Positions 1 through 27,091 are shown, numbered from the stretch's first letter. The stretch: DNA of 64,000 bases from an uncultured Lactobacillales bacterium (GCA_964414185.1 CAYPVK010000002.1:82296-146295), one strand, 5' to 3'. Notes: generated by a model from the sequence alone, not told the origin. Program-made: numbers and translations.

Positions 1-1431
1 CAATTGGTTGGCCAATGCGGGATTGACTTTGCCGCCGGACGCTTTCATAACCTGGCCGACAAACCACCCTTTTAATTTGTCTTTGCCACCCTTAATTTCG
101 GCGACTTTATCGGGGTTTGCCGCCAAAATTTCGCCGATGAGCGCTTCAATCGCGCCGGTGTCGGAATTTTGTTTTAAACCCTTTTCTTCGACAATCGCGG
201 CGGGGTCTTTTTGCGTTTCAGCCATGATTTCAAATACGTCTTTGGCGATTTTGCCCGAAATCGTACCGTCGGCAATCAATCCCACCAACGCGCCCAAATT
301 CTTGGCGGAAATCGGCGATGTCGCCACGGTCAAGTTATGTTTGTTCAAATATGCGAACAAATCGCCCATGACCCAATTCGCAACCTTTTTGGCGTCGCGC
401 CCTTGCATCGCTTCTTCAAAATAAGCCGACGTTTCGGTGTCCGCCGTCAAAATTCCCGCGTCATAGGCGGGCAAGCCCAATTCATCAATATAGCGTTTCT
501 TTTTCGCTTCGGGCAATTCGGGCAATGTCGCGCGGATATTTTCGATATATTCGTCCGTCAACACGACCGGCAGCAAATCGGGGTCGGGAAAATAACGATA
601 ATCGTTTGCATTTTCCTTTGACCGCATCGGGCGCGTTTCCAAATTAATCGAATCAAACAAACGCGTTTCCTGACGCACCGTTTCGCCGTTTTCGTACGCG
701 GCCACTTGGCGGTTGGCTTCAATTTCAATGGCTTGCATCACAAAACGCACCGAATTGACGTTTTTTACTTCCACACGGTCGCGCAATTTGGTTTCGCCCA
801 CTTTGCGCACCGAAATGTTCGCATCGCACCGCATCGACCCTTCGTCCATGTTCCCGTCGCAGGTGCCCAAAGCTCGCACAATCGCGCGCAATTGGCGCAA
901 GTATTCGCCCGCTTCTTCGGGGCTGTGCATATCGGGTTTGGACACGATTTCCATCAAGCCCACGCCGCAACGGTTTAAATCGATAAACGATTTTGACGGG
1001 CTCATGTCATGGATGGATTTGCCCGCGTCTTGTTCCAAATGCAACCGTTCGACGCCGATTTTGCGTGTACCCTCAGATGTCGTGATTTCAATAAAGCCTT
1101 CGCCGACAATCGGGTAGTATAATTGGCTGATTTGATAGCCTTGCGGCAAATCCGCGTAAAAATAGTTTTTGCGGTCAAAGCGCGAATATTTGTTGATTTT
1201 CGCGTTCAATCCGAAACCCGTTTTAACGGATGCTTCAATACATTTTTCGTTCACAACGGGCAACATGCCGGGAAAACCCGCATCAATAAACGATACGTGT
1301 GTGTTTTGTTCGGCACCGAATGTCGCTGATGCGCCCGAAAAAACTTTTGCGTTCGAAATGATTTGGCAATGGACTTCCAACCCGATAACCAATTCCCAAT
1401 CCGCCGTGTTTCCTTTGATAATATACGTCAT
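1..1431 (-). CDS. gatB: Asp/Glu-tRNA(Asn/Gln) amidotransferase subunit B (GatB). It is 5'-complete, and its C-terminus runs off the window start
   Basis: The minus-strand ATG at 1431 gives [62 protein letters not shown], a clear GatB N-terminus. It lies 3 bp downstream of the gatA stop, in the classic gatC-gatA-gatB order. The plus-strand ORFs listed here are antisense shadows. Confidence 0.9.
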
Positions 1432-1434
1432 CTT

Positions 1435-2919
1435 TTATCCTTTCACACGGTGCGGGGTTTTGTCAAATCCGGCCGCCGTTTCCAAAACGTCAGCGACGTT
1501 AAAGACCGTGTTTTCATCAAAATGTTTACCGATAATTTGAAGTCCGATGGGCAAACCTGTATCGGCCGTTTTGCCGACCGGCAACGCTAATGCGGGCAAA
1601 CCCGCGAGCGAGCTCGGCGTTGTAAATATGTCGCCCAAATATGTGGATACCGGGTCCATTTTGTCAATGTCGCCGAAATCCAAAGCCGGCGTCGGCGCGG
1701 CAGGTGCCAAAATCGCATCAACCGTTTCAAAGGCTTTTTTAAAATCGTCATAAATCAAACGGCGGACGCGTTGGGCGTGTGTGTAGTATGCATCATAAAA
1801 TCCCGCCGATAAAACGAATGTGCCGAGCATGATACGGCGTTTGACTTCGTCGCCGAAACCGTCCGTACGGGTGTTTTTGTACATCTCGTCCAACGTTTTG
1901 CCTTCAACGCGCGTTGTGTAACGTACACCGTCATAGCGCGATAAGTTTGATGAGGCTTCGGCGCACGCGATAATGTAATAAACGGGCAAGGCGTATTTCG
2001 TGTGCGGCAAAGAAATATCGACAATTTCGGCACCGGCGTCTTTTAAAAATTGTACGCCCGCATCCCACACTTTTTCAACGTCTTTGTTCATGCCGCCCAT
2101 GCGGTATTCGCGCGGCACGCCGATTTTTTTGCCGCGGATGTCGCCCGTTAAAGCCTTGGTATAATCGGGTACTTCCACATCAACCGACGTTGAATCTTTT
2201 TTATCATAGCTTGCCATCGCATTTAACAGCATCGCACAATCTTTGACCGAACGCGCCATCGGGCCCGCTTGGTCTAAGCTGGACGCAAACGCGACAATCC
2301 CATAGCGCGAACAACGCCCGTAGGTGGGTTTAATGCCCGTAATGCCGCAAAAAGAGGCCGGTTGGCGAATGGAACCGCCCGTGTCCGATCCCGTTGCACC
2401 CATGCATAAACCCGCGGCAACGGCAGCGGCCGATCCGCCCGAAGACCCGCCCGGCGTTAATGTGTATTCGCCGTCTTTAATCGTCCAAGGGTTTTTCGAC
2501 GGCCCGAAATAGCTGGTTCGTGTCGATCCGCCCATTGCGAATTGGTCCGTGTTCAATTTGCCGAGCATGACGGTACCCGCATCGCGCAGATTTTGCGAAA
2601 CGGTGGATTCATACGGCGGCACGAATTTTGATAAAATCTTGCTGGCGGCCGTTGTTTTAATGCCCGCCGTGCAATATAAATCCTTATTCGCAATCGGAAT
2701 CCCGTCCAAATCGCCGAGTGTTTCGCCTTTGGCACGGCGTTCGTCGGACGCGGTCGCATCGGCCAATGCTCTGTCGGGCGTTTCGGTAATAAAAGCGTTA
2801 AGTACGCGCCCTTTTTCCATTTGTGCCAAATGTGCCTCAGTCAATTCTTTGGCCGAAATTTCCTTTTTGTTTAACAGATCGGCAGCCTCGGCTATCGTTA
2901 AATTAATCAAATCTGTCAT
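1435..2919 (-). CDS. gatA: Glutamyl-tRNA(Gln) amidotransferase subunit A
   Basis: 494 aa with an amidase signature ([27 protein letters not shown]). It is tightly coupled to gatC upstream and gatB downstream. Confidence 0.95.
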
Positions 2920-2922
2920 GTC

Positions 2923-3210
2923 TTACTCCACCATTTTGGGAACTTCAAAAAATCCGTGAGCGCTTTCGGGGGCATTTTGCATCAATTCGGCTTGAATATC
3001 CCCTTCGGTCACGACATCCTTGCGCATCGGCTGGTTGGCCCCGTTAATGCTGATTAACGGTTCGACATTTGCCACGTCCACCTCTTGCAATTGTTCCACC
3101 CATTTTAAAATCCCGGCAATTTCTTCCGCCATTTTTTCTTTTCCCGCTTCATCTAAATTCAATCGGGCGAGATTGGCGATGTTGGCGGTTGTTTGTAAAT
3201 CGAAACTCAT
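2923..3210 (-). CDS. gatC: Glutamyl-tRNA(Gln) amidotransferase subunit C
   Basis: 95 aa, MSFDLQTTANIANLARLNLDEAGKEKMAEEIAGILKWVEQLQ. This is a typical GatC, located immediately upstream of gatA. Confidence 0.9.
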   Translation of the reverse strand: MSFDLQTTANIANLARLNLDEAGKEKMAEEIAGILKWVEQLQEVDVANVEPLISINGANQPMRKDVVTEGDIQAELMQNAPESAHGFFEVPKMVE

Positions 3211-3240
3211 TCCTTAAAATTCCTTTTAAAACGCAATTGT

Positions 3241-3566
3241 ACGGTCGCTTCCGGTGCTCATATCCTCACGTACCCGAAAGTACGCTCCGGTATTGTGCGC
3301 CGGTTCTCCCTCCACTTGCGCCCTAAAAGAAATTTATTGAGAGAGAAAAGTGTCTTTTAATGCAAAAGAGTGTGCGTTAAATTCGTCCGTTTGTCAAGAA
3401 AAATATAAATCCATTTTATAGCCCGTCTGCGCGCGTCCTTCCGGTACTCGTATTCTCACGTACGTTAAGTACGCTGCGGTACTGCGTGCCGGGTGCCGCT
3501 CCATACGAACTTTCAAATGAATTTATGTGTGTTTACAGCCAGTCTGGACGCATCCTTTCGGTATCA
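3241..3566. repeat. Array of ~100-bp imperfect direct repeats: two full copies (~3241-3340 and ~3419-3526) and one truncated copy (~3537-3566), spaced ~180 bp apart and non-coding
   Basis: Copy 1 reads cgcttccggtgctcatatcctcacgtacccgaaagtacgctccggtattgtgcgccgg. Copy 2 reads cgtccttccggtactcgtattctcacgtacgttaagtacgctgcggtactgcgtgccgg. Each has a cgtac/gtacg mini-hairpin core and the two are ~75% identical. The third copy (agccagtctggacgcatcctttcggtatc) matches only the 5' part. No ORF spans them. Confidence 0.55.
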
Positions 3567-3692
3567 TTGTTTCAAAATAATTTTTGAATAAATAAAAATA
3601 TGCTTTACCATTTATATAAAACCGTTAATTTTTGCTTGATTTATCAGACAAATTACAGTTATACTGCTTACATAACAAGAAACGAGGTTGAT

Positions 3693-3980
3693 ATGCAAGA
3701 GCCGATTTTAAAAGCAGTTGCCATGCCGCCGCGCGTCTTTTGGGCGCCGATGGTGCCGGCTATTGTCAATATCGCGGTGCAAACGCCGATTATGTTTGTG
3801 TGGATTGCGTTCGGTAACAACCCGATTTTCTTTATTGCAACCCTTTTGCTTGCCCATATCGGCATTATCATTTACGGGGTGCGCGAACCTCATTTATCGA
3901 ATATGATGAAGGCGTCGGGCCCGATGATGAGTCCGTCCAAAAACATCTATCCATCCAAGGGAAATAAATTGGCTCCATGA
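3693..3980 (+). CDS. virB3: Type IV secretion system protein VirB3/TrbD-like
   Basis: MQEPILKAVAMPPRVFWAPMVPAIVNIAVQ... matches the VirB3 signature (PLFKGLTRPAM-like) and contains a hydrophobic hairpin. A gaggt ribosome-binding site lies upstream. It sits immediately before virB4. The ORF track's earlier start at 3600 is unlikely. Confidence 0.7.
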   Translation: MQEPILKAVAMPPRVFWAPMVPAIVNIAVQTPIMFVWIAFGNNPIFFIATLLLAHIGIIIYGVREPHLSNMMKASGPMMSPSKNIYPSKGNKLAP

Positions 3981-3993
3981 CAAAGGATTTTAA

Positions 3994-6426
3994 ATGACAG
4001 ATGCAGGCGTATTTTCGATGTTGGCGCAAAGCGCCTCGTCCTTTTCCACTTTGGTAGCCGTTTTCGGCGTCGGCGCGGCTATGCTGATTATGGCCGTGTT
4101 TGTGACCAAATTGGGCGATATTATTTTGCCTAAGCCCAAAGAAACGCGTGTATCGGATTTTTTGCCGTTTTCCAAGTTGGATGAAGACGGTGCGACGATT
4201 CATATGCGCAACGGGTCTTTGGCGCGCGTATTTGAAGTCAAAGGCGCTGATACGACGTTGTTAATGCCCGAAGACCGCGCCCAATTGGCCGAGGCGCGCA
4301 AGCGGTGGGTTGATTCGATGGCCGAATTGGAAATTGTATCGCGCGTTATTACGATACGCGAACGTGTGCCGTTATTTGAAAAAGAAGCGTTTCGCGACAG
4401 CAAGCTTTTGCGCACCATTTCCGAATTATGGCTGCGCGCTTTGCACCGTATTTTCCACAACCGCCATTATATCGTGTTGTCGGTCAACGACCGCAAAACG
4501 GCCATGAAAGATTTGGTGCAAGCCAGCAATGCCTTGACGGCTATTTTGGATATGTATGAACCGGTTTTGATTTCCGAAAAAACGCCGAACCGCCACAACG
4601 ACAAATCGCCGTTTTGGCTGTTTGCAAAGCTGCTCAGCCCGCTTTCAAACCCGAAACCGATTGTGCATGGGGAACAGGGCGAATATTTAAACGCGTTGTT
4701 GACATCGGATTATATCCATTTTACCAAAGATGAAGGCATCATTAAATTCATTTCGGGCACGAAAGAAAAAATGGCGATATGCATGGGCATTCGCAAACCC
4801 GGCGATTTTATGGACGAACAAATGGTTGCCGATATTATCAGCATTGATTGCGAAGTGACCGTTTGCCATAATATTAAGGCTATTCCGAATGTCAAAGCCA
4901 ACTTTTTGCTGATGCAACAACGGCGTATGGCATATTTGACGACCTTTTCGCAAAACGTGCAACAACAATATGATACCGCGTTGGAATGGATGGACCAATC
5001 CGATGCGGACGGTCAAACGTTGAACGAATATGCGATGAGCGTGTTTATTTTCGGCGATTCGAAAGAAGAATTGAATTTCGGGCAAGAAGAAGTCGAAAAA
5101 ATCTGCCGCTTGCACAATGTGACGCCGGTGCGTGACGGATGGGCGGCGCAAGCGACGTTTTTTGCGCAATTCCCGACCTATGAAGTTTATCCGCGTACGT
5201 TTATGTATTTATCGCGTGTGGTTGCGTGCGGCGTGTGTATTGACAAAACCGCCGAAGGGCGCCAAAAATCGGATTGGGGCCCGGTGCCGTTGTCTTATTT
5301 CAGGACGATTACCGGCACGCCTTATGCGTTCCAATTCCACGTGTCCGAAGAACCGTACGGCGTGGCGCATACCGCTTTAATCGGGCCGACGGGTCAAGGT
5401 AAAACGACGTTTTTCTCATTCATGGCGGGGCAATCGATGCGTATTCCCGATTTACGCACGTATTTCTTTGACCGCAACAACGGCGCCAAAGTCTTTGCTT
5501 TGATGCAAGGCGCCCCTTACGTCAAATTTGACGGCGGTGCCGAATCGGTGTCGCTCAATCCGTTGGCCGTACCCGATACGCCGGATAATCGCGCGTTCTT
5601 GCGTACGTGGATTCGCGATATCACGGGCGGTACGGATGCCGTTTCCGAACAAGAAATCGCCCGCGCCGTCACGACTGCGTTTGATTATTTAAAACCGTCG
5701 GAAAGGCTGCTTAAAAACCTGTACAAAGCGTGTTTTGCGCCGAACGGGTATATGCGCACCGAATTGTTGCGCTGGGTTAATGACGACCAATACGGGCGCG
5801 TGTTTAATTCGCCGACCGATAATTTGGATTTGGAACACCGCTATATGGCGTTTGATTTTACGACGATTTTCCAAGACGGCGTTTTGGCGCCGGCGGTAAT
5901 CAGTTACATCATGCACCGTATTCATACGCTTGCCACCGCAACGGGCAATCCGAACTTGATTATGATGGATGAAACGGCGCCGATGTTGGAACACCCGATG
6001 TTTCGCGAACAATTTATTGTGGGTTTGCGCGAAGGGCGTAAAAAACGCCAAGCTTTCCTGTGCGCTTTCCAACAGCCGCGGTTTTTGGATGACAACGGTC
6101 TCGGCGACGTGATTCGCGGGCAATGCCAAACGGTGATATTCTTCCGCAATCCGCAAGCGAACCCGTCCGATTATGCGACATGGAATTTAACGCCCAGAGA
6201 GATGAATTTCATCATGGGCAAAGAATTCGCCGACCATAAATACGCAATTTTGGTCAGCCGCCCCGCCATTCACGAATCCGTCATTTTGGACATTGATTTA
6301 AGCGGGTTGGGCCCGTATTTGAAAATTTATTCGTCGGGTAACAAATCCGTGTTGTTGGCCGAACAGCTGTCCCGCCAAATCAGCGATACCGATGCGTTGG
6401 TACAAGCGTATTTGGAACGCGCGTAA
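3994..6426 (+). CDS. virB4: Type IV secretion system ATPase VirB4/TrbE/CagE
   Basis: 810 aa with an N-terminal TM segment, a Walker A motif (GPTGQGKTTFFSFM) and a Walker B motif (LIMMDETAP). The overall architecture is that of a VirB4. Confidence 0.9.
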   Translation: MTDAGVFSMLAQSASSFSTLVAVFGVGAAMLIMAVFVTKLGDIILPKPKETRVSDFLPFSKLDEDGATIHMRNGSLARVFEVKGADTTLLMPEDRAQLAEARKRWVDSMAELEIVSRVITIRERVPLFEKEAFRDSKLLRTISELWLRALHRIFHNRHYIVLSVNDRKTAMKDLVQASNALTAILDMYEPVLISEKTPNRHNDKSPFWLFAKLLSPLSNPKPIVHGEQGEYLNALLTSDYIHFTKDEGIIKFISGTKEKMAICMGIRKPGDFMDEQMVADIISIDCEVTVCHNIKAIPNVKANFLLMQQRRMAYLTTFSQNVQQQYDTALEWMDQSDADGQTLNEYAMSVFIFGDSKEELNFGQEEVEKICRLHNVTPVRDGWAAQATFFAQFPTYEVYPRTFMYLSRVVACGVCIDKTAEGRQKSDWGPVPLSYFRTITGTPYAFQFHVSEEPYGVAHTALIGPTGQGKTTFFSFMAGQSMRIPDLRTYFFDRNNGAKVFALMQGAPYVKFDGGAESVSLNPLAVPDTPDNRAFLRTWIRDITGGTDAVSEQEIARAVTTAFDYLKPSERLLKNLYKACFAPNGYMRTELLRWVNDDQYGRVFNSPTDNLDLEHRYMAFDFTTIFQDGVLAPAVISYIMHRIHTLATATGNPNLIMMDETAPMLEHPMFREQFIVGLREGRKKRQAFLCAFQQPRFLDDNGLGDVIRGQCQTVIFFRNPQANPSDYATWNLTPREMNFIMGKEFADHKYAILVSRPAIHESVILDIDLSGLGPYLKIYSSGNKSVLLAEQLSRQISDTDALVQAYLERA

Positions 6427-6458
6427 AAACGGGCTTATAACAAACGGGCGGGCAAATC

Positions 6459-7376
6459 ATGCGGCAAATTCCCTTTGAAAATTTAGCGTGTCCGATTGAT
6501 TTGGAACCGCTTAAAGTTTATGAAAGCTTTGCAGGGCAAACACGGCAGGAAAGTTTTTACAAATGTGTGCATAACCATTCGTTCGATACGGCGCGCGCCG
6601 GATATGTCAATTTGTTGCCGTCCCAATTCAAACATTCCAAAAACCCCGGCGACCAAAAACAAATGGTTATGGCAAGAACGGCCTTTTTAAATTCGGGCGC
6701 TTACAAGGACGTTTTGCAAGCGTTGTATGAAGCTGTTAAAGTTTATATAAGCGATATATCCCGCGATGCCCCGTCGACAGGTCAAACGGATACAACTTCC
6801 TTGAATATCGTTGATGCGGGGTGCGGGGAAGGGTATTATACCGTCGGTTTGGCTAAAAAATTAGCGCAAGAGCCGGGCGACGATTCTTTTTCGATTTTCG
6901 GATATGATATATCCAAAGAAGCCGTTACGGCCGCCGCCAAACGCGGCAAAGGCATTTCTTGGGCGGTGGCAACAACGGCGCGCATGCCCGTTTTAACCCG
7001 AACGGCTGATATGGTTTTATGCTTGTTCGGTTTTCCCGTGTGGTCGGAATTTGACCGCGTATTAAAGCCGAGCGGGCAAATTGTTTTTATCGATGCTGAC
7101 GCGGACCACCTGATTGAATTGCGTGAAAGGATGTATGACACGGTTTATCAAAAACAAGCCGTGTCCCGTACGTATCCCGGGTTTGAATGTACGGGCGCAC
7201 GGCGGTATAAAATCCCGCTTGAAAAATTATCAAGCGAACAAATTGCCGATTTAATCAAAATGACGCCGCATTATTATCGGATGAATAAGGATAAATTCAA
7301 TCTTCTTACGTCTCATCCGCCGAAATGCGTGACACTTGATTTTTGTGTATCGCGTTACAGCCGTAAAAACGGTTGA
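6459..7376 (+). CDS. rlmA: 23S rRNA (guanine745-N1)-methyltransferase RlmA
   Basis: It has an N-terminal zinc ribbon (LACPIDLEP...CVHNHSFDTARAGYVNLLP) and a SAM motif (VDAGCGEGYYT). This is closely similar to the organisation of E. coli RlmA(I). Confidence 0.8.
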   Translation: MRQIPFENLACPIDLEPLKVYESFAGQTRQESFYKCVHNHSFDTARAGYVNLLPSQFKHSKNPGDQKQMVMARTAFLNSGAYKDVLQALYEAVKVYISDISRDAPSTGQTDTTSLNIVDAGCGEGYYTVGLAKKLAQEPGDDSFSIFGYDISKEAVTAAAKRGKGISWAVATTARMPVLTRTADMVLCLFGFPVWSEFDRVLKPSGQIVFIDADADHLIELRERMYDTVYQKQAVSRTYPGFECTGARRYKIPLEKLSSEQIADLIKMTPHYYRMNKDKFNLLTSHPPKCVTLDFCVSRYSRKNG

Positions 7377-11469: not shown

Positions 11470-12255
11470 TTACCACCGTGGAATGTTGTTGTTGTCGCGA
11501 TAGCGGCGCGACGGATAATCCGTGTCGGACGGAATGTCGTTATATCCCGCAAAGTGCGGTGCTGCGCGCAATTGGACATACCCTTGGGATTCATATGATC
11601 CGATGCAATTATAGTCGGTAAAATCACACCGTACCAACTCGCGTGTCATCGGGTTTTGCAAAACAACCGCCGAACCCGTGTTTGCAGCATTTTGTGTTGT
11701 TGCATCCGGTGCAGTTGCATTTGCCGAATTCATTTCCGCCCCGCCCGTATTTTGTGCGGCCGTATTCGGTGTAACCGTATTTTGCATGATTGCGTTTTGA
11801 TCGGCTTGCGCATACGGATAATACGGCATCGCATTCGGATTTTGTATCATTTGCGGATAGCCGGTGTTTTGTCCCGCAATATTTTGTGTATTTTGCGGTG
11901 CGTACATCGGTACGGGAATTTGGTTTTGTGCCGTTTGATATTGGCCTGTCACAGTTTGCGTTTCATAAGCAACGCCGGGTTGTTGTACATATTGTAAATC
12001 GGCAACCGTGCCGTATGCCGGCCCGAAATAATCGTCTTGAATGGTATAAGCGGGCGTTATCGCATAAGTGGTTTTTTGCGTTGTTTGAGTATTTGTATTC
12101 GTATTTGTTGCAACCGATTGTACTTCTTTCGGCATTGCAACGGGGTTGTGAGATGCACTGTTGTCAATTTTGACGGTAACCGGCGGTTGCATGGGTTGTG
12201 TTTGCAAAGTACATCCGGCTGCGATAAACAACGAAAGCAAAAGAAATTTTTTCAT
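11470..12255 (-). CDS. Lipoprotein with a long Q/N/T/P-rich low-complexity region
   Basis: A signal peptide (MKKFLLLSLFIAAGC) carries a lipobox Cys, with an aagga ribosome-binding site before the ATG at 12255. About 200 aa is dominated by Q, N, T, P and Y. A Cys-containing C-terminal domain follows. The gene overlaps the comM start. Confidence 0.6.
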   Translation of the reverse strand: MKKFLLLSLFIAAGCTLQTQPMQPPVTVKIDNSASHNPVAMPKEVQSVATNTNTNTQTTQKTTYAITPAYTIQDDYFGPAYGTVADLQYVQQPGVAYETQTVTGQYQTAQNQIPVPMYAPQNTQNIAGQNTGYPQMIQNPNAMPYYPYAQADQNAIMQNTVTPNTAAQNTGGAEMNSANATAPDATTQNAANTGSAVVLQNPMTRELVRCDFTDYNCIGSYESQGYVQLRAAPHFAGYNDIPSDTDYPSRRYRDNNNIPRW

Positions 12256-12410
12256 ATGGGGTATCCTTTTTTTGTACAAGCAGTTTAATTTTTAGTCAGT
12301 ATAGCAAATGTAATTTGAAAAAAAAAGCTTTATTTACATTTTTTTAATCATTTCGGCGTTTTTTCGGGGCAGTTGTTGTGTTCTTTTGAAAATCCGATGT
12401 GTCCTATATT

Positions 12411-12482: not shown

Positions 12483-13664
12483 TTAATAATTTTGCTTAAT
12501 CGTGTCGGCCAATTTGTCAAGCGCGGCGTAATCCGCCTCTTTAGGTGTCCCTTTGACCAAAACGGGATCCAAAAACGGCACCGTTTTCATATTGCCGAGC
12601 AAGCCCGTCAGCGAATTGACAATCAATGTGCCCCAGCTGTATGATCCGATAAGCCCCAAAAATTGAATGTTCGGTTTAATGGCGTTCAACAAAAATACCG
12701 GTTCGACCACCATCGGGTGCAACCCCGTCAAAACGGTCGGCGAAGCAACAATGACGCCCTTGCAATCGATTAAATCCGAAGCCAATTCGGTATTGTTTAA
12801 ATTCATCACGTCGTGATGTTTGACTTCAATGCTTTTTTCTTCCAATGCTTTTTTCAAATAATCGATCATTAACGTTGTCGACCCGTACATCGAAACGCCG
12901 ATGATGACGACTTTGTTTGCCCGCGGCTCCGCAGACCATTTGCGGTATAAATCCATGATATAACGCACGCCGTCGCCTTTATAGGCGGGACCGTGGCTCG
13001 GTGCAATGACGGAAGGGTTTAAAGCGGCGATTTTATCCAAATATTTTGCCCAAATTTTGGCAAACGGCATTTGGATTTCGGCATAGTAGGCTTTAATCAG
13101 CGGCAAAATCGTATCGGTGCCGTCCCAAAAAACATCGTAATTTGTCACGTGTGCGCCGAAAAAGTCCGTGGAAAAAAGGATTTTGTCTTCTTTTAAAAAC
13201 GCAAACATCGTGTCGGGCCAATGAACCCACGGCGCAAACATGAATTGCAACGTTTTATCGCCCAAAGAGATTTTGTCGCCGTCGGCAACGATATGGTATT
13301 GATCTTCTTTTAACGGTAAAAAGCCCATCGTGATTTCTTGGCATTTTTTGTTTGTCACGATTTTGGCTTCGGGAAACAAGCTTAATAATTCGGGCAATGT
13401 CCCGGTGTGGTCTTGTTCGCCGTGGTTGATAATGACATAATTGATTTTTTCGATGCCCATTTCTTTAAGCTTGTCAATCAATTCGTTATGGCACGGCGGG
13501 TAAACGGTATCGACCAACGCCGTTTTTTCGGACCCTTTGATTAAAAAGGCGTTGTAGCTTGTCCCTTCGGCAAGCGGCATTAAATTGTCGAAAAACGGGC
13601 GGTGGCGGTCTTTTGATCCGACGCAGTAAATATTGGGAATCAATTCTTTTGTGCTCATTTTCAA
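12483..13664 (-). CDS. fprA: Flavodiiron protein (A-type flavoprotein / NO- or O2-reductase). It has a metallo-beta-lactamase-like diiron domain and a flavodoxin domain
   Basis: 393 aa. It carries the diiron motif INHGEQDHTG and a C-terminal flavodoxin-like region (VVIIGVSMYGSTT). The length and domain order are typical of FDP class A. Confidence 0.85.
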   Translation of the reverse strand: MKMSTKELIPNIYCVGSKDRHRPFFDNLMPLAEGTSYNAFLIKGSEKTALVDTVYPPCHNELIDKLKEMGIEKINYVIINHGEQDHTGTLPELLSLFPEAKIVTNKKCQEITMGFLPLKEDQYHIVADGDKISLGDKTLQFMFAPWVHWPDTMFAFLKEDKILFSTDFFGAHVTNYDVFWDGTDTILPLIKAYYAEIQMPFAKIWAKYLDKIAALNPSVIAPSHGPAYKGDGVRYIMDLYRKWSAEPRANKVVIIGVSMYGSTTLMIDYLKKALEEKSIEVKHHDVMNLNNTELASDLIDCKGVIVASPTVLTGLHPMVVEPVFLLNAIKPNIQFLGLIGSYSWGTLIVNSLTGLLGNMKTVPFLDPVLVKGTPKEADYAALDKLADTIKQNY

Positions 13665-13680: not shown

Positions 13681-14647
13681 TTATTTTTCAGATATGGTTT
13701 GTTTCTTTGCCTTTGTCAAACGTTCGATTTCTTCGGCGCTTAAAGATACAATGTCCAAGTCAACGTATGCGGCGTTTTTAAGCGTGATTTGTGCGCCCAA
13801 ACGTACGGGGTGGCAATTGGCATCCGGATCGAATTCGACACACGTTTCGGCGACAACGTAATATTGGCCGTCCGGCAGGTTTTTAAATTCAAAAGTTCCG
13901 CCCGATTTGACGTCGGCGTTTTTTCTGTAATCATTTGTGCGTTTGTCGGCTTGAGACAATGTTTGACCGTTTTTCCAATGAACGTTCCACCATTCTTTTG
14001 AATAGGACGTGACGGGATTGGCAAAAACGATAACGGTTTCGGGGCACGGGACACCTTCGGGCAAGTTTTTGCATACGCTGCCCGTTATTTCGGCATGCCC
14101 TTGTTTTCCGTAAGGCACGTATTCTTCGATAATGAATTGTGCTTGACGCTCAATGGGCGGTCGACAAGGAATGCTGGCCAAGCTGAATTTTTTTGCAGGT
14201 TTGGCAATATGGTCCGTTTTATCTGTTTTTATTTTTTTTTTTTGAAAAAGAACTTTTGATAACTCTTTTTTGGACACCGTCTTCTTGATTGACAATGATA
14301 ACTTTGTCAACTTGGGATTGTTCGGATTTGGTGTTGTAGCTTTCCAATTTTATTTGCAATGTATGCAAAACTTGTTCTTCCCAATGACGCGCTTCCAAAT
14401 AATTGCGGATAAACAAATCGCCGAAGAATAAACAAGCCATTAAAACAATGCCGCAACAAAAGCTGAAAATGCATAATTTATCTTCGTGTGTCGTGCTTTC
14501 GCAAAAAACGGGCGGCAATTTCGAGCGGAATTTACGCCATTTGGAAGTTTTTTTGTCTGCGGGTAATTTTGTTTCGGATGAATTTATTTGCACGGAAGCC
14601 GCCGATTTGGTTGTTGCGGCTTTTTTCATATTTTGTTTTTTGGCCAT
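13681..14647 (-). pseudogene. Membrane-anchored hypothetical protein split into two overlapping ORFs (14647->14219 and 14310->13681) by a frameshift in an A12 homopolymer. It is either a pseudogene, a sequencing error, or a slippage-prone/phase-variable gene
   Basis: The upstream ORF ends ...VIKSSFSKKKNKNR* and the downstream ORF begins ...QKKKIKTDKTDH, both reading through the same T12 tract at 14232-14243 (A12 on the coding strand). Removing one A joins them into a single ~320-aa ORF. That ORF would have a basic N-terminus, one TM helix and a Cys-containing periplasmic domain. Confidence 0.5.
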
Positions 14648-14832
14648 GGTTTGTTACCTCCTGTTTTGCCTGCTTTAAGCAAGGGTAAAAGATTTTTGAT
14701 ATCCTGTCAACCCCATAAAAATAAGTAGGCGGTATTTTTATGACAAAAAGTTTGTCGGATTAATTTAAGCTTGTCTTTTCGGGGGCATTGTGATATAACA
14801 CAATATATTTGTATGTATTTTAGGAGTTTTTT

Positions 14833-17800
14833 ATGATCCCACAAATGTTGAAAGACAAGCGCTTTTTGCCCTTGCTCATCCCCAATTTTTTATCCGCTTT
14901 AAACGATAATTTTATTCGGTATGTTTTTTTGTTCTTTGTAACGTATAAAATGACGCAAGGCAGTGCTTTGTTAATTATTTCCGCCGTTATTTTGTATGCT
15001 TTGTCGTTCAGTTTTGCATCCGTTTTTGCCGGCCAAATCGCCGATCGCATGTCTAAGACGAAATTTATGCAAAGCATTCGCATTTCGGAAATCGCCGTTA
15101 TGATGATGGCATTGATCAGTTTGTCATTGGATTCCAGATGGTTATTCATGTTGATTGTTGCGTCCATGGGGATTGTATCGGCATTTTTACGTGTCGGCAA
15201 TAATTCGATTTTGCCTGTGCTTGTTGCCGAAAAAAAATTGAATATGGGCAACGTTTGGTTGAAAATTTCTTCAACATTCGGCGCTTTGGCCGCAGTCGGT
15301 TTTTTGACATCCATCTTAAAATTTGATGCCGCTTATTACGTTGTTACGTTCATCGCATTTGCTTTGTCGGCGGTCAGCTTTTTAATTACCTTAAAATTGC
15401 CGATGACCGATGCGGCGGATTCGGAAGCACCGTTTTATAAAAATCCTCAGAAAGCTTTCGGTGTCGTGGCCGATTATTTGAAAAACAAGTATGATATTTG
15501 GTTGTATATTGTCGGCATTTCATGGTTTTGGATTTTGGCAACCGTCGTAGCGGTTTTTTCCGCCGAATACGGCCGAGCCGTTTTGAATGCCAGATGGTCC
15601 GTCGTGATGTATTTGTCGAGCATTTTCGGGCTCGGATATATCATCGGTGCGTTTTTATATGCCAAAGTCACGCATAAAAACAATATAGGCACTTGGACGG
15701 CGTTGGTATCGTTTTTGATTTCCTTGTTCATGTTCGATTTGATTATTGCCAGCACCGATGTGGTGCATGACCCGTCTCAAAAAGCCATTACCGTTGCCAA
15801 AATGTTCACAACCGATTTTGATTATTGGCGCATCATGGTTGACGTATTGGTATTGGGCGGCTTGTCGGCATTCTTCATTATTCCGTTTTATACGCTGTTG
15901 CAAATCAAATCCGCACATAAAATGCTCGGCCGTGTAATAGCTTTTTCGTCGATGATTAACGCCATAGCGGTTATGGGTGCGTTCTTGGTTGTGCTCAGCT
16001 TTCGGTCGCTCGGGTTTGATTTGTTGACCGTTTTGGCATTGTTTGCGGCGTTCAATTTGCTGATGGCGGTTTATATGATACGGTTGTTGCCGCTTGCGTC
16101 CCGTCGGCAATTATTCAAAAAGATTTTTCGTACATTGTTTAATGCCCGTATAGAAGGGTTGGAAAATTTGGCGATTGCCGGACCGCGCGCGTTGATTATT
16201 CCGAACCATTCGTCTTATTTGGACGTCTTGTTGATTTCGGCGTTTATTGACAAGAAAATTTTGTTGGCGATTGACGAAAAATTAATGCAACGTCCGTTTA
16301 TTAAGTTCATGACGAATTTGGTCGATGTGAAACCGATGGATGCGGTCAGCCCCTTTGCCGTTAAAGAAATGTCCGAAGAACTTAAAAAAGACCAACTGTG
16401 CATGATTTTGACGGAAGGGTTTATCGAAGGCGGCAACACGCGCATGAAAATTTACGAAGCACCCGCTTTGATGGCGGTCAAAGGGAATGCGCCGATTTTG
16501 CCGATTCGCATCGACGGCGCCAAGCACGCAATTTTTTCACGCGTGTTGAAAAACAAAGCGGATTTCCGTTGGTTCCCCGAAGTTTCAATTAATATTTTGG
16601 AACCCGTTTCTTTTGATTATAATGAAAAAGAATTGACGACTCGTGAAATCCGCGAACAATCCAGTTCCAAATTGTATAACATTATGTTTGACATGGTGTT
16701 TGACAGCTATAAAACGGATATGTCAATATTCACGGCTATCGCACGTTCCATGAAAATGGCCGGTCGTTTTAAACCCGTCATGGAAGATACGGCGCGGCAT
16801 CCCGTCAGGTTTATGGGCGTATTTTTGAAATCGTTTGTTTTGGGGACATTGATTAACCGTGCAATTCCGAATGACAAATATGTGGGCGTGATGGTACCGA
16901 CATCCAATACATGCGCTTTAACGGTATTCGGGCTGCAAGCTTATAACAAAGTACCGTGCATGATTAATTTTTCATCGGGTCCGAAACAAGTTATCGCGAC
17001 ATGTAAAACTGTTGGTTTAAAAACGGTCGTTACGGCCAAAAAAGTTGTGATGTTGGCTAAATTGGAACCGCTGGTTGAAGAAATCAAAGCTGCCGGCATC
17101 AATATTTTGTATTTGGAAGATTTAAAAGATTTGCTTAAATTTTCCGACAAATTGTTTGGAATTTGGAGTGCTTTTTGTCCCGAATCCGCTTATAAAAAAA
17201 CATCGGGCGGCAAGGTGAAAGGGTCCGATACGGCGGTTGTGTTGTTTACATCCGGTTCGGAAGGTATGCCTAAGGCCGTATTTTTGTCACATAGCAACAT
17301 TTTGTCAAATTGTTATCAAGTCCCGTCCCGTTTTGATGTGTTGCCGAACGATGTGTTTTTGAACTGTTTGCCGATGTTTCATTCGTTCGGATTGGGGGCC
17401 GGTATGATTTTGCCGTTGTTAATGGGCGTTAAAACGTTTTTATATCCGACACCGTTGCATTATCGCATTATCCCCGAAATTTGCGCATCCGTCAAAGCAA
17501 CGATTTTCTTTGGTACGGATACATTCCTGGCGGGTTATGCCAAATGTGCGAATCCGTATGATTTCAACAGTTTGCGCATTGTTGTGGTCGGTGCCGAAAA
17601 ATTAAAGGATGAAACGCGCAAAATTTGGTCGGAAAAATTCGGCGTGCGTATTTTGGAAGGGTACGGAGCAACCGAATGTTCTCCGTTTGTTTCCGTCAAC
17701 ACATTCTTACATCAAAAGCTCGGTTCCGTCGGCCGTTTGCTGCCCGGCATGAGTTACGATTTGCGTGAAGTCCCCGGTATCAAGGAAGGTAAAGAATTGT

Positions 17801-18258
17801 TGATTAAAGGTCCGAATATCATGCAAGGGTACATGCGTTATGAAAAACCGCTTGAACTCGACCCGCCGAAAGACGGTTGGTATGATACGGGCGATATCGT
17901 TGAAATTGACAAAGACGGCTTTATCTTTATCAAAGGGCGTTCGAAACGTTTTGCCAAAGTCGGCGGTGAAATGGTGTCATTGCTCAGCGTTGAAACGGTT
18001 ATTCAAAAAAAATGGCCCGGCGTCATTGCGGGGGCGGTCAACATCCCGGATAAGAAAAAAGGCGAACAAATCGTCTTGATTACGACCAGCAAAGACATTA
18101 ATAAAGAAGAGTTGATTTTGGCGTTTAAGGCAGCCGGCGTTACCGAATTGGGTATTCCGTCGAAAATTATCGTTACGGATAATCCGCCGCTTTTGGGTAC
18201 CGGAAAATTTGACTATGTTCGCGCCAAAGAATTGGCAAATGCCGAAGTAAACGGTTAA
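14833..18258 (+). CDS. aas: Tripartite fusion of lysophospholipid transporter LplT (MFS), 2-acyl-GPE acyltransferase and acyl-ACP synthetase (LplT-Aas)
   Basis: 1141 aa. The N-terminal ~400 aa is a polytopic MFS-like domain. It is followed by PlsC acyltransferase motif I (PNHSSYLDVLL, HxxxxD) and then an AMP-binding domain (TSGSEGMPKAV, GYGATECSP). Confidence 0.8.
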   Translation: MIPQMLKDKRFLPLLIPNFLSALNDNFIRYVFLFFVTYKMTQGSALLIISAVILYALSFSFASVFAGQIADRMSKTKFMQSIRISEIAVMMMALISLSLDSRWLFMLIVASMGIVSAFLRVGNNSILPVLVAEKKLNMGNVWLKISSTFGALAAVGFLTSILKFDAAYYVVTFIAFALSAVSFLITLKLPMTDAADSEAPFYKNPQKAFGVVADYLKNKYDIWLYIVGISWFWILATVVAVFSAEYGRAVLNARWSVVMYLSSIFGLGYIIGAFLYAKVTHKNNIGTWTALVSFLISLFMFDLIIASTDVVHDPSQKAITVAKMFTTDFDYWRIMVDVLVLGGLSAFFIIPFYTLLQIKSAHKMLGRVIAFSSMINAIAVMGAFLVVLSFRSLGFDLLTVLALFAAFNLLMAVYMIRLLPLASRRQLFKKIFRTLFNARIEGLENLAIAGPRALIIPNHSSYLDVLLISAFIDKKILLAIDEKLMQRPFIKFMTNLVDVKPMDAVSPFAVKEMSEELKKDQLCMILTEGFIEGGNTRMKIYEAPALMAVKGNAPILPIRIDGAKHAIFSRVLKNKADFRWFPEVSINILEPVSFDYNEKELTTREIREQSSSKLYNIMFDMVFDSYKTDMSIFTAIARSMKMAGRFKPVMEDTARHPVRFMGVFLKSFVLGTLINRAIPNDKYVGVMVPTSNTCALTVFGLQAYNKVPCMINFSSGPKQVIATCKTVGLKTVVTAKKVVMLAKLEPLVEEIKAAGINILYLEDLKDLLKFSDKLFGIWSAFCPESAYKKTSGGKVKGSDTAVVLFTSGSEGMPKAVFLSHSNILSNCYQVPSRFDVLPNDVFLNCLPMFHSFGLGAGMILPLLMGVKTFLYPTPLHYRIIPEICASVKATIFFGTDTFLAGYAKCANPYDFNSLRIVVVGAEKLKDETRKIWSEKFGVRILEGYGATECSPFVSVNTFLHQKLGSVGRLLPGMSYDLREVPGIKEGKELLIKGPNIMQGYMRYEKPLELDPPKDGWYDTGDIVEIDKDGFIFIKGRSKRFAKVGGEMVSLLSVETVIQKKWPGVIAGAVNIPDKKKGEQIVLITTSKDINKEELILAFKAAGVTELGIPSKIIVTDNPPLLGTGKFDYVRAKELANAEVNG

Positions 18259-26003: not shown

Positions 26004-27091
26004 ATACGTTTATTTATTTGTTTGCTTTTATTTTTGTTTTGTCCGTTGTCGTGGTTGTACATGAATGGGGGCATTTTATCGTTGCACGTTTGTGTGGTGT
26101 GAAAGTAACGCATTTTTCAGTCGGTTTCGGCAAAGTTTTGTGGCATCGGACCGATAAAAAAGGTACGGTATGGCAAGTGTGTGTGTTGCCGTTGGGCGGT
26201 TATGTGAAAATGTTGGGCGATGAAGATGCGGCCAGTGCCACCGCTTCGAAAAAAAATGTAAAAAAAGAAGATGAAAAATATATGTTCGCGACACAATCCC
26301 TTTGGAAAAAGGCGGCTATTATCGTTGCGGGCCCGGGCATGAACTATGTGTTTGCGATTTTATTGTTGACGGGTATTTTCTTTTTTGCGGGAAAAGCCGT
26401 TTGGCCGCCCGTTATCGGCGGGTTCGGCGAAAATTCGGCGGCTGAAGAAGCGGGCATGTCGGTCGGCGATAAATTTGTGGACATTAACGGATTGCCTGTT
26501 GAAAAATATCATGATATTTTGCGCATTGTCCGTTTGACGGAATTCGGCAAAGAATTGGCAATCACGGTTGACAGAGACGGTGAGCGGCTTTTATTTAACG
26601 TTACGCCTCGGTATTTTGAAGATTCCGTTCCGAGAATCGGCATTTATGCGGCGACCGAAAAAATTGTCATAGAGGAAAATTTGGGCTTGGTTCGTTCTTT
26701 TAAGGAAGCCGTCATTGACGTATATACGATTACCGTTGACACGTTGGCATATTTGGGACAGGTATTGTTTCATAACCGTTCGGCGGATGATATGCGCGGG
26801 CCGTTGGGCATTGCCGAAGCTGCGGGAGATTCTTTAAAGGGCGGCGCAATGTCGTTGTTATTGTTTATTGTGAATATTTCGGTTGCCATCGGCTTTATGA
26901 ATTTATTGCCGGTGCCGATTTTGGACGGAGGCCATTTGGCGTTTTACGCCGTTGAAGGCATTATCCGCCGCCCGATACCCGAAAGGATTCAAAACGGCTT
27001 GCTTTGGGGGGGCATGTCGTTATTGTTGTGTTTGTTGGCATTTACAATGTATTTGGATGTTCCCCGTATCATACAAAGGATATTCGGATGA
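25997..27091 (+). CDS. rseP: RIP zinc metalloprotease RseP (site-2 protease)
   Basis: It contains an HExxH motif (VHEWGHFIVARLCGVKV), a PDZ domain and an LDGGHL motif. It overlaps the cdsA stop. Confidence 0.9.
   Translation: MVDTFIYLFAFIFVLSVVVVVHEWGHFIVARLCGVKVTHFSVGFGKVLWHRTDKKGTVWQVCVLPLGGYVKMLGDEDAASATASKKNVKKEDEKYMFATQSLWKKAAIIVAGPGMNYVFAILLLTGIFFFAGKAVWPPVIGGFGENSAAEEAGMSVGDKFVDINGLPVEKYHDILRIVRLTEFGKELAITVDRDGERLLFNVTPRYFEDSVPRIGIYAATEKIVIEENLGLVRSFKEAVIDVYTITVDTLAYLGQVLFHNRSADDMRGPLGIAEAAGDSLKGGAMSLLLFIVNISVAIGFMNLLPVPILDGGHLAFYAVEGIIRRPIPERIQNGLLWGGMSLLLCLLAFTMYLDVPRIIQRIFG

What the first reader, a model, noticed from the sequence alone, without database searches (positions are those of the whole stretch)
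13681..14647. Membrane-protein gene split by a frameshift inside an A12 homopolymer
Two overlapping minus-strand ORFs both read through a T12 run at 14232-14243. Deleting a single A restores one ~320-aa ORF with a basic N-terminus, one TM helix and a Cys-bearing periplasmic domain. An A12 tract is a classic site for slipped-strand mispairing, so this may be a phase-variable contingency gene or a programmed transcriptional slippage site. It could equally be a homopolymer sequencing error or a fresh pseudogene.
Basis: seen in the sequence. Interest (0 to 1): 0.5.

Follow-up and report, generated by a model that had tools for sequence, protein, structure and literature searches.

The report
Conserved poly-A frameshift in membrane-protein gene
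One gene for a membrane-anchored periplasmic protein is interrupted by a run of 10-12 A's that has kept it out of frame across a whole clade of uncultured Alphaproteobacteria while both halves stay under selection, so the full protein is most likely made by slippage on the A-run, as shown earlier for a few genes such as tssM.

Summary
Two minus-strand ORFs (14647..14219 and 14310..13681) overlap at an A12 run (T12 on the + strand, 14232-14243), and removing one A gives a 321-aa protein. It is not a sequencing artefact and not a pseudogene. Intact single-ORF relatives show that the two ORFs are halves of one gene: a basic cytoplasmic tail, one TM helix, a disordered linker and a PA1324-like beta-sandwich. 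Every lineage of the clade carries an A9-A12 run at the same linker position. The deepest branches all sit in the same out-of-frame register and need -1A or +2A; about 107 contigs were inferred from ORF length and none was in frame. Both halves show dN/dS of about 0.1-0.3 between lineages. The 39 codons just after the run evolve as coding sequence only in the downstream frame, and two lineages have no start codon through which that frame could be entered. The window's genes otherwise avoid coding A-runs of 9 or more (1 seen, 5.8 expected). The best reading is a conserved recoding site, most likely RNA-polymerase slippage, that yields a short anchor-only product and a full-length product. In the window's own species the run length also varies (A9, A10, A11, A12), including A11 against A12 in otherwise identical DNA, so slippage at the DNA level resets the ratio. 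This is a new member of a known kind.

The parts
13681..14647 (-). The whole gene. It is one coding unit of 321 codons once one A is removed from the run.
   Evidence: A11 gives 321 aa. That protein is identical to P0010, which is encoded in frame on contig L003. Intact single-ORF relatives P0011, P0014 and P0015 match both halves.
14219..14647 (-). The zero-frame product as encoded in the DNA: 142 aa with a basic tail, a TM helix and a juxtamembrane helix, ending at TAA 14219-14221.
   Evidence: Homologous 136-146-aa ORFs occur in all related lineages.
14657..14662 (-). Shine-Dalgarno sequence AGGAGG of the upstream ORF. It is the only ribosome-binding site serving the gene.
   Evidence: The candidate TTG starts of the downstream ORF (14310, 14181) have no SD.
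14408..14476 (-). Codes for the single transmembrane helix (residues 58-80, LCIFSFCCGIVLMACLFFGDLFI).
   Evidence: Kyte-Doolittle maximum of 2.5. The AF2 model has a helix at 54-112 with pLDDT above 90.
14232..14243 (-). The A12 slippery run (T12 on the + strand). It lies in the disordered linker and encodes the Lys run at about residues 136-138.
   Evidence: The homologous run is A9-A12 in every lineage.
14229..14231 (-). A TAA directly after the run. It becomes in-frame if one A is added, giving a 139-aa product.
   Evidence: The A(n)TAA arrangement is conserved in most alleles; the L005-type allele instead reads A10-TTAA.
13681..14232 (-). The downstream frame: 183 codons plus the stop, comprising the linker remainder and the C-terminal domain. 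It is reachable only by -1A or +2A at the run.
   Evidence: (dN/dS 0.10-0.23).
13717..14169 (-). PA1324-like prealbumin/transthyretin-type beta-sandwich domain (residues about 160-310), with nearly invariant Cys residues at 192, 201, 269 and 278.
   Evidence: AF2 pLDDT is above 90. Foldseek hit to 3qec has E 3.5e-8 and TM 0.76. A profile against PDB sequences gives E 1.4e-4. The Cys columns are nearly invariant in alignment A3.
12483..13658 (-). Flavodiiron/ODP-type protein gene starting 22 nt after the stop. It is the conserved downstream partner and is probably co-transcribed.
   Evidence: Pfam ODP and Lactamase_B hits. The same neighbour is present in all loci, including the intact relative P0011.

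Best explanation
This is one gene, not two. It encodes a bitopic inner-membrane protein: a Lys-rich cytoplasmic tail, one TM helix, a disordered basic linker and a periplasmic PA1324-like beta-sandwich. In this clade of uncultured Alphaproteobacteria the linker carries an A10-A12 run that leaves the downstream part out of frame. Standard decoding gives a 136-146-aa anchor-only protein. A fraction of expression events lose one A or gain two at the run and give the full-length protein of 321-347 aa; a gain of one A stops at the TAA directly after the run. The likeliest step is realignment of the nascent RNA on the template inside RNA polymerase, which a run of this length causes without any extra signal. 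So two length variants come from one gene, as shown experimentally for Citrobacter tssM1. In the window's own species the run also changes length in the DNA (A9, A10, A11, A12), which switches the major product between the short and long forms. Shown here: the single-gene ancestry, the conserved run and register, purifying selection on both halves and on the linker in the downstream frame, the lack of any independent start, and the DNA-level length polymorphism. Inferred: that slippage occurs, that it is transcriptional, and that both products are used.
For: (1) Intact relatives of 240-340 aa carry both halves in a single ORF. (2) An A9-A12 run lies at the homologous linker site in every lineage. 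The window, L001, L010-12, L015/L040 and L002 all need -1A or +2A. (3) ORF lengths on about 107 contigs of three lineages (145, 146 and 140/141 aa, ending ...QKKN...) imply the same out-of-frame state. Two contigs imply A11, and none is fused. (4) dN/dS is 0.10-0.23 in the C-part and 0.14-0.32 in the N-part between lineages, at dS up to 2.4. (5) The 39 codons directly after the run have pN/pS 0.17-0.23 in the downstream frame against 1.0-4.8 in the other two frames. L040 and L011 have no ATG, GTG or TTG in that frame from its upstream stop through to the domain. (6) The downstream part has no SD and no signal peptide, although the domain family is exported. (7) The genome avoids coding A-runs of 9 or more everywhere else. 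(8) The case meets the comparative criterion of Baranov 2005 for functional slippage (PMC1088944). It also mirrors tssM1, which has an A11 run, a C-terminal periplasmic beta-domain in the +1 frame, transcripts with 10-15 A's and about 20-25% full-length protein (PMC4256274).
Against: There is no RNA or protein data, so slippage itself is inferred. The needed change is -1A or +2A, whereas the tssM1 study reported mainly added A's, so the yield of full-length product may be low. In the window's species two alleles are in frame (A11, A9) and two need the opposite shift (+1A), so the register is not strictly fixed and DNA-level switching clearly happens. AAA makes up 84% of Lys codons, so a Lys run would often be an A-run by codon bias alone. 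For most of the roughly 107 contigs the run length was inferred from protein ends, not read from DNA.
Confidence: 0.62

Rival explanations
1. A classical phase-variable contingency locus. Slipped-strand mispairing during replication changes the run length, only cells with an in-frame run make the full protein, and selection acts through those subpopulations. RNA-level slippage is then irrelevant noise.
For: L003 differs from the window by 0 mismatches and one gap in 6,967 bp, and that gap is A11 against A12. Within the species there are A9, A10, A11 and A12 alleles, both in frame and out of frame in both directions. In the UBA7488 lineage, two contigs have a 138-aa product that implies A11.
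Against: No in-frame allele appears among about 107 contigs of three other lineages. The same out-of-frame register is retained across branches with dS of 0.8-2.4. The run sits mid-gene in a linker, so 'off' still yields a conserved 136-146-aa membrane protein, unlike the usual early truncation at a contingency locus. Metagenome assemblies report only the majority allele, so minority in-frame cells cannot be excluded.
Confidence: 0.2
2. Ribosomal frameshifting (+1 or -2), or ribosome sliding on the lysine-encoding A-run, supplies the full-length protein rather than RNA-polymerase slippage.
For: Ribosomes are reported to slide on iterated AAA codons (PMC4363877, listed). The run contains A AAA AAA slippery patterns.
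Against: Most alleles need +1 or -2, not the common -1. No conserved downstream structure or upstream SD-like stimulator was found: the consensus folds are -9 to -14 kcal/mol with about zero covariation, and the upstream hairpin is no better than shuffled sequence. Runs of 10 or more A's are themselves known transcriptional slippage sites.
Confidence: 0.08
3. The count of 12 in this particular assembly is a homopolymer miscall, and the true strain has A11 as in L003. The split in the window would then be an artefact, even though relatives are genuinely frameshifted.
For: L003, an independent assembly of the same strain, has A11 with no other difference in about 7 kb.
Against: The split products P0001 and P0007 are listed from both NCBI and Logan sources. 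Other ORF pairs that overlap at homopolymers in the window are complete genes. A12 with the extra T preserves the ancestral register exactly.
Confidence: 0.07
4. There are two independent genes, or a decaying pseudogene: the downstream ORF is translated from its own start, or is not translated at all.
For: Gene callers annotate a separate downstream ORF of 166-205 aa in some loci. L001 has an ATG just after the run.
Against: That ATG is lineage-specific. L040 and L011 have no start codon in the frame, and callers found no gene there. There is no SD and no signal peptide for an exported, Cys-bearing domain. Intact relatives are single ORFs. dN/dS of 0.1-0.2 excludes decay.
Confidence: 0.03

Closest known systems
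Citrobacter rodentium tssM1 (and Yersinia pseudotuberculosis T6SS-3 tssM) transcriptional frameshifting (Gueguen et al. 2014, PMC4256274)
   Same: Both are inner-membrane proteins whose C-terminal periplasmic beta-domain lies in another frame after a poly-A run (A11 there, A10-A12 here). A premature stop follows shortly after the run, there is no extra stimulatory signal, and two length variants are expected. In both cases the arrangement is conserved in a second species.
   Different: The protein family is unrelated, and no T6SS genes were identified among the genes examined at this locus. The change needed here is -1A or +2A, not added A's alone. Nothing has been shown experimentally here. 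The conservation here is much deeper (saturated dS, several lineages), and in-frame alleles exist in one species.
Poly-A frameshifts rescued by transcriptional slippage in Buchnera and Blochmannia (as summarised in PMC3017870)
   Same: The frameshifts lie inside poly-A runs, are conserved between species without gene decay, and the full-length product is restored in a fraction of transcripts (about 30% reported).
   Different: Those genomes are extremely AT-rich and hold more than 100 coding runs of 9 or more A's, and the frameshifts are seen as tolerated damage under drift. This genome is 45.6% G+C and avoids such runs except at this one site, which argues for retention rather than drift.
Thermus thermophilus dnaX, and Shigella mxiE/spa13 transcriptional slippage (reviewed in PMC5009743)
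   Same: An A or T run of about 9 yields two products from one gene, and stops lie close by in the non-productive frames. The in-frame A9 and A11 alleles here would behave like T. thermophilus dnaX, with a long form templated and short forms made by slippage.
   Different: The proteins and cellular roles differ, and the run here is longer. mxiE slippage also affects the adjacent downstream gene. A similar effect on the flavodiiron gene here is only a conjecture.
Phase-variable contingency loci with homopolymeric tracts (knowledge of the field: Neisseria, Haemophilus, Campylobacter, Helicobacter)
   Same: A hypermutable homopolymer lies inside an ORF for an envelope protein. Run-length differences between otherwise identical genomes switch the reading frame.
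   Different: The run is mid-gene, not near the 5' end. One out-of-frame register dominates across lineages, and no in-frame alleles occur in the best-sampled lineages. The truncated product is itself conserved.
PA1324 of Pseudomonas aeruginosa (PDB 3qec, 1xpn)
   Same: The C-terminal domain has the same prealbumin-like beta-sandwich (TM 0.76, rmsd 3.0 A, E 3.5e-8; profile E 1.4e-4) and the same extracytoplasmic location. PA1324 belongs to the envelope-stress regulon (PMC3372973).
   Different: PA1324 is a small exported protein with a predicted lipoprotein signal (PMC3372973). Here the domain is tethered by an N-terminal TM anchor, has extra conserved Cys pairs, is only 21% identical, and is always paired with a flavodiiron gene.

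Membership tests
Genes expressed through programmed transcriptional slippage | A homopolymeric A or T run of about 9 or more at the junction of two overlapping frames | tested here: met
   A12 in the window and A9-A11 in relatives, all at the same linker site.
Genes expressed through programmed transcriptional slippage | The ORF organisation and the run are conserved in non-identical homologues (criterion of Baranov et al. 2005) | tested here: met
   Five lineages with 53-92% aa identity share the run and the register that needs -1A or +2A. The criterion is quoted.
Genes expressed through programmed transcriptional slippage | The trans-frame part is under purifying selection and has no initiation site of its own | tested here: met
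   dN/dS is 0.10-0.23. The post-run linker has pN/pS of about 0.2 only in the downstream frame, and L040 and L011 have no start codons there. There is no SD.
Genes expressed through programmed transcriptional slippage | An mRNA population that is heterogeneous in run length, and two protein products | not testable with these tools
   This needs RNA-seq, RT-PCR mass spectrometry, and a Western blot or proteomics.
Phase-variable contingency locus (slipped-strand mispairing) | Repeat-length polymorphism between closely related genomes that switches the frame | tested here: met
   The window (A12) and L003 (A11) differ by 0 mismatches in 6,967 bp. A9, A10, A11 and A12 alleles occur within the species.
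Phase-variable contingency locus (slipped-strand mispairing) | Both ON and OFF states are commonly found across populations | tested here: inconclusive
   ON alleles appear in 2 of 5 alleles of the window's species, but in none of about 107 contigs of three other lineages. Assemblies show only the majority allele.
Phase-variable contingency locus (slipped-strand mispairing) | Length heterogeneity within a population, seen in reads or single colonies | not testable with these tools
   Raw reads are not available here.
-1 programmed ribosomal frameshifting (dnaX or IS type) | An X XXY YYZ slippery heptamer with the product in the -1 frame | tested here: not met
   An A AAA AAA pattern exists, but the ancestral and most common alleles need +1 or -2. 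Only the L005 and L009 alleles need -1.
-1 programmed ribosomal frameshifting (dnaX or IS type) | A stimulatory downstream structure or an upstream SD-like element | tested here: not met
   No conserved stable structure was found and covariation is about zero. The upstream hairpin is -2 to -4 kcal/mol with z-scores of +0.1 to -2.2.
PA1324-like prealbumin-fold envelope proteins | Fold and sequence similarity to PA1324 | tested here: met
   Foldseek hit to 3qec with E 3.5e-8 and TMt 0.76. hmmsearch against PDB sequences gives E 1.4e-4. Sub-threshold Pfam hits to CarboxypepD_reg, SpaA and SdrD_B appear in the protein and its relatives.
PA1324-like prealbumin-fold envelope proteins | An export signal that places the domain outside the cytoplasm | tested here: met
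   This holds only in the fused protein, through the TM anchor with a positive-inside tail. Distant relatives carry signal or lipoprotein sequences.
PA1324-like prealbumin-fold envelope proteins | Polysaccharide binding or an envelope-homeostasis role | not testable with these tools
   This is only postulated for PA1324 itself (PMC3372973).

The most novel reading that the evidence does not exclude
The A-run is a selected, clade-wide recoding device. It sets the ratio of an anchor-only isoform to a full-length periplasmic-domain isoform. Because out-of-frame translation stops about 540 nt before the co-transcribed flavodiiron gene, the run may also tune that gene's expression through transcription-translation coupling. 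DNA-level changes in run length would then act as a heritable dial on the same ratio. That would be a two-layer (RNA and DNA) stochastic switch on an oxygen/NO-stress module in a free-living or gut bacterium that otherwise purges slippery runs.
Probability: 0.15. Interest if true: 0.7.

Novelty: new member of a known kind. Interest (0 to 1): 0.55.

Why it matters
Only a handful of non-mobile bacterial genes are known to depend on slippage at a homopolymer for their full product (dnaX in Thermus, mxiE/spa13, tssM, and some endosymbiont genes). This case adds one with unusually strong comparative support. The out-of-frame register is retained across saturated synonymous divergence. The post-run linker is constrained only in the new frame and has no start codon. 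The host genome avoids such runs elsewhere. The case also has practical weight: annotation pipelines call this gene as two hypothetical ORFs, as one ORF plus nothing, or as a pseudogene, and so hide a conserved partner of a flavodiiron protein. It also gives a natural series of A9, A10, A11 and A12 alleles in one species for measuring how run length sets isoform ratios.

Tried and rejected
Sequencing or assembly error as the general cause was rejected. The split recurs in many independent assemblies, and other ORF pairs overlapping at homopolymers in the window (G7 at 27006, A8 at 33393, C8 at 46435) are complete RseP/BamA, LpxI/LpxB and TruB genes.

The pseudogene reading was rejected on dN/dS.

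An independent start for the downstream ORF was rejected. TTG 14310 and TTG 14181 have no SD, TTG is simply the main Leu codon at 63%, and L040 and L011 have no start codon at all in that frame.

A ribosomal-frameshift stimulator was sought with two consensus folds and six single folds around the run. Nothing beyond weak A-U pairing was found.

Rfam found nothing in the window, and Pfam has no family for the protein.

The genome-contig scan with the fused alignment found no locus. A second scan with the neighbouring flavodiiron protein gave the organism label and one chimeric contig.

The metagenome scan returned only distant soil relatives of the C-domain, with no A-run.

Searches with fused queries did not return the N-ORF clusters. 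The absence of fused proteins in the database is therefore suggestive rather than conclusive.

Exact look-ups for P0001 and P0007 found no contig on record. I could not establish whether the A12 and A11 assemblies come from the same sample.

Full report
OBSERVATION. On the minus strand, an ATG at 14647 preceded by AGGAGG opens a 142-codon ORF. It runs through 12 consecutive A's (T12 on the + strand, 14232-14243) and stops at 14219-14221. A second frame, open from 14310 to 13681, also reads through the run. Removing one A gives a 321-aa ORF and adding two gives 322 aa. A10, A12 and A13 all terminate within a few codons of the run. The run is the only homopolymer longer than 9 in the 64 kb window.

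IS THE RUN UNUSUAL? I took the window's 48 non-overlapping long ORFs (18,700 codons), kept each protein sequence, and redrew synonymous codons from the window's own usage. The shuffles expect 5.8 +/- 1.5 coding A-runs of 9 or more, but the real genes have one, which is this run. Of nine KKK windows only this one is AAA-AAA-AAA, against 5.3 expected from the 84% share of AAA among Lys codons. So this genome interrupts potentially slippery Lys runs everywhere except here. Other ORF pairs that overlap at shorter homopolymers are complete, separate genes with full-length Pfam coverage (RseP, BamA, LpxI, LpxB, TruB, Ndk). The assembly is therefore not generally damaged at homopolymers.

ONE GENE, NOT TWO. 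A profile of the downstream part was searched against 1.84 billion representative proteins and found 540 relatives. The closest ones outside the clade (P0011-P0035) are single ORFs of 240-340 aa with the domain at the C-terminus. P0011, P0014 and P0015 have N-terminal regions plainly homologous to the window's upstream ORF (…TREDK.(S/C)LLSFCLGMI…R.(W/F)E…). An AlphaFold2 model of the fused protein was built with these relatives as the alignment. It is confident for a long helix at 54-112 that contains the TM segment, and for a beta-sandwich at about 160-310 (pLDDT above 90). The model is disordered at 1-38 and 110-141, and the run encodes residues within that second disordered linker. The N-tail has net charge +9, there is one hydrophobic segment (58-80), and the downstream part has no hydrophobic leader.

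THE DOMAIN. The sandwich matches P. aeruginosa PA1324 both by fold (3qec, E 3.5e-8, TM 0.76) and by profile (E 1.4e-4). PA1324 is an envelope-stress-regulon protein with a predicted lipoprotein signal and a prealbumin-like fold (PMC3372973). More distant soil relatives carry signal or lipoprotein leaders. The domain therefore belongs outside the cytoplasm, and in this gene only the upstream TM anchor can take it there.

COMPARATIVE ANATOMY OF THE RUN. Protein searches and exact contig look-ups recovered the locus from many public assemblies. It always lies between a divergent MFS-acyltransferase-acyl-ACP-synthetase gene (Aas-like, 1141 aa) and a flavodiiron/ODP gene that follows directly. The nearest named genome is the MAG 'Alphaproteobacteria bacterium UBA7488'. 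Junctions read from DNA are as follows.
- Window: TTTTTC-A12-TAAAAAC, which needs -1A or +2A.
- L003: the same strain, with 0 mismatches in 6,967 bp, but A11 and in frame.
- L004: TTTCC-A9, in frame; this contig was seen in 3 samples.
- L005 type (5 samples): TTTTC-A10-TTAAAAAC, which needs +1A.
- L009: TTTCTC-A10, which needs +1A.
- L010-12: A10, which needs -1A.
- L001: A10, which needs -1A.
- L015 and L040 (UBA7488 lineage): TTATC-A10-TAACGCC, which needs -1A.
- L002 (the most distant, about 60% aa identity): A10, which needs -1A.

The window's T5-C-A12 is the ancestral T4-C-A10 plus three bases, so it preserves the register. The N-ORF clusters extend the picture. In the UBA7488 lineage, 13 listed sequence variants on about 90 contigs are 145 aa and end …QKKNNAPRGAF, which is the A10 state. 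Two contigs give 138 aa ending …QKKK, which implies A11. None is fused. Two further lineages give 146 aa (12 contigs) and 140/141 aa (5 contigs). For most of these contigs the run length is inferred from the protein end, not read from DNA. A search with the UBA7488-lineage fused sequence found no in-frame protein, although that tool's recall is imperfect.

SELECTION. Nei-Gojobori estimates give dN/dS of 0.10-0.23 for the downstream part in every pair. That includes pairs of out-of-frame alleles at dS 0.8-2.4. The upstream part gives 0.14-0.32 between lineages. This excludes a pseudogene.

The sharper test concerns the roughly 39 codons between the run and the first conceivable downstream start. 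Among L001, L040 and L011 these have pN/pS of 0.17-0.23 in the downstream frame, against 1.0-4.8 in the other two frames. In L040 and L011 that frame contains no ATG, GTG or TTG anywhere from its upstream stop, through the run, to the domain. Gene callers found no gene there at all. The candidate TTG starts in the window have no SD, whereas the upstream ORF has AGGAGG and the flavodiiron gene has AAGGA. Translation must therefore enter the downstream frame from the upstream ORF, within the short stretch where both frames are open. The run is the only slippery element in that stretch.

MECHANISM. No conserved RNA structure flanks the run. The consensus folds are -9 to -14 kcal/mol with about zero covariation. 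A small A-U hairpin abutting the run is no better than shuffled sequence. Most alleles need +1 or -2, not -1. These points argue against a classical ribosomal frameshift cassette.

Runs of 9-11 A's are established transcriptional slippage sites that need no further signal. In C. rodentium tssM1, an A11 run ahead of a premature stop gives transcripts with 10-15 A's and about 20-25% full-length protein. The C-terminal periplasmic beta-domain there lies in the +1 frame, both length variants are required, and the arrangement recurs in Yersinia (PMC4256274). Baranov et al. treat conserved ORF organisation plus a conserved A-run in non-identical homologues as the sign of functional use (PMC1088944), and that criterion is met here. 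Endosymbiont genes with conserved poly-A frameshifts are likewise rescued at the RNA level (PMC3017870).

I therefore infer that RNA-polymerase slippage yields three products: an anchor-only protein from the templated length, a slightly shorter one from +1A, and the full-length protein from -1A or +2A. This step is inferred, not shown.

THE DNA LAYER. In the window's species the run and its edges have changed repeatedly, giving A9, A10, A11 and A12 plus 1-nt changes in the flanking T's. These produce in-frame alleles and alleles in the other out-of-frame register. One pair of otherwise identical sequences differs only by A11 against A12. It does not explain the other lineages, where one out-of-frame state dominates. 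I cannot exclude that the window's own count of 12 is a miscall of 11. Against that, the split products are listed from both NCBI and Logan sources.

VERDICT. The finding is real, and it is neither an error nor a pseudogene. It is a conserved recoding site in a single gene for a TM-anchored PA1324-like periplasmic protein that partners a flavodiiron gene. The mechanism is most likely transcriptional slippage, with run-length mutation superimposed in the window's species. It is a new member of a known kind. Its interest is moderate to fairly high, because non-mobile examples are few and the comparative evidence here is unusually clean, but no experiment supports it yet.

Noticed in passing
L015 1-236 (contig DLOI01000019.1 of MAG UBA7488): The first 236 bases are the reverse complement of the junction and linker region (including T10), joined head-to-head to the C-domain coding sequence. 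This is a fold-back chimera and probably a misassembly at the contig end. There is also an NN inside the domain at about 620.
   Followed up: partly
window 12483-13658 (-), and L001-L014, L036-L040: The gene is always followed within 20-70 nt by a flavodiiron/ODP-type gene of about 390 aa. This holds even for the intact 42%-identical relative P0011, where the upstream neighbour is ftsZ. It is a conserved gene pair of unknown functional link.
   Followed up: partly
window about 14170-14232 (-) compared with L001, L040, L011 and L002: The window's species lacks about 24 linker codons (…ALFEAAPFFIKSAAAAETQG…) that are present and constrained in the other lineages. The linker right after the run is therefore length-variable.
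   Followed up: no
window 11470-12279 (-): A 269-aa ORF with a lipoprotein-like leader (LLSLFIAAGC) and a long Q/N/T/P-rich low-complexity body. It has no Pfam match. Related loci hold an ORF of 225-261 aa, with no recorded Pfam hit, at the same position.
   Followed up: no
window 1-6500: GC skew changes sign near 4 kb, and from there to 64 kb it is steadily positive with most genes on the + strand. The ORF at 3994-6426 gives only a weak VirB4/TrbE-type hit.
   Followed up: no
window 12318-12326 and 36995-37003: These are the only other runs of 9 A's. Neither falls within the 48 long ORFs analysed, and the first lies between the flavodiiron gene's stop (12483) and the end of the ORF at 11470-12279. 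Coding DNA otherwise has no A-run of 9 or more, which suggests selection against slippery runs in this organism.
   Followed up: partly
window 14244-14275 (-) and the homologous positions in L001, L040 and L011: A short A-U-rich hairpin (AAAGA…TCTTT) ends 1-2 nt before the run in several lineages. It is -2 to -4 kcal/mol and not significant against shuffles. It recalls the hairpin-assisted slippage described for IS630 elements, but there is no support for that here.
   Followed up: yes
window 14833-18258 (+): A 1141-aa fusion of an MFS transporter, an acyltransferase and an AMP-binding (acyl-ACP synthetase-like) domain, followed by gpsA. It is divergently transcribed from the studied gene in the frameshifted-clade loci where the upstream region was recovered.
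   Followed up: no
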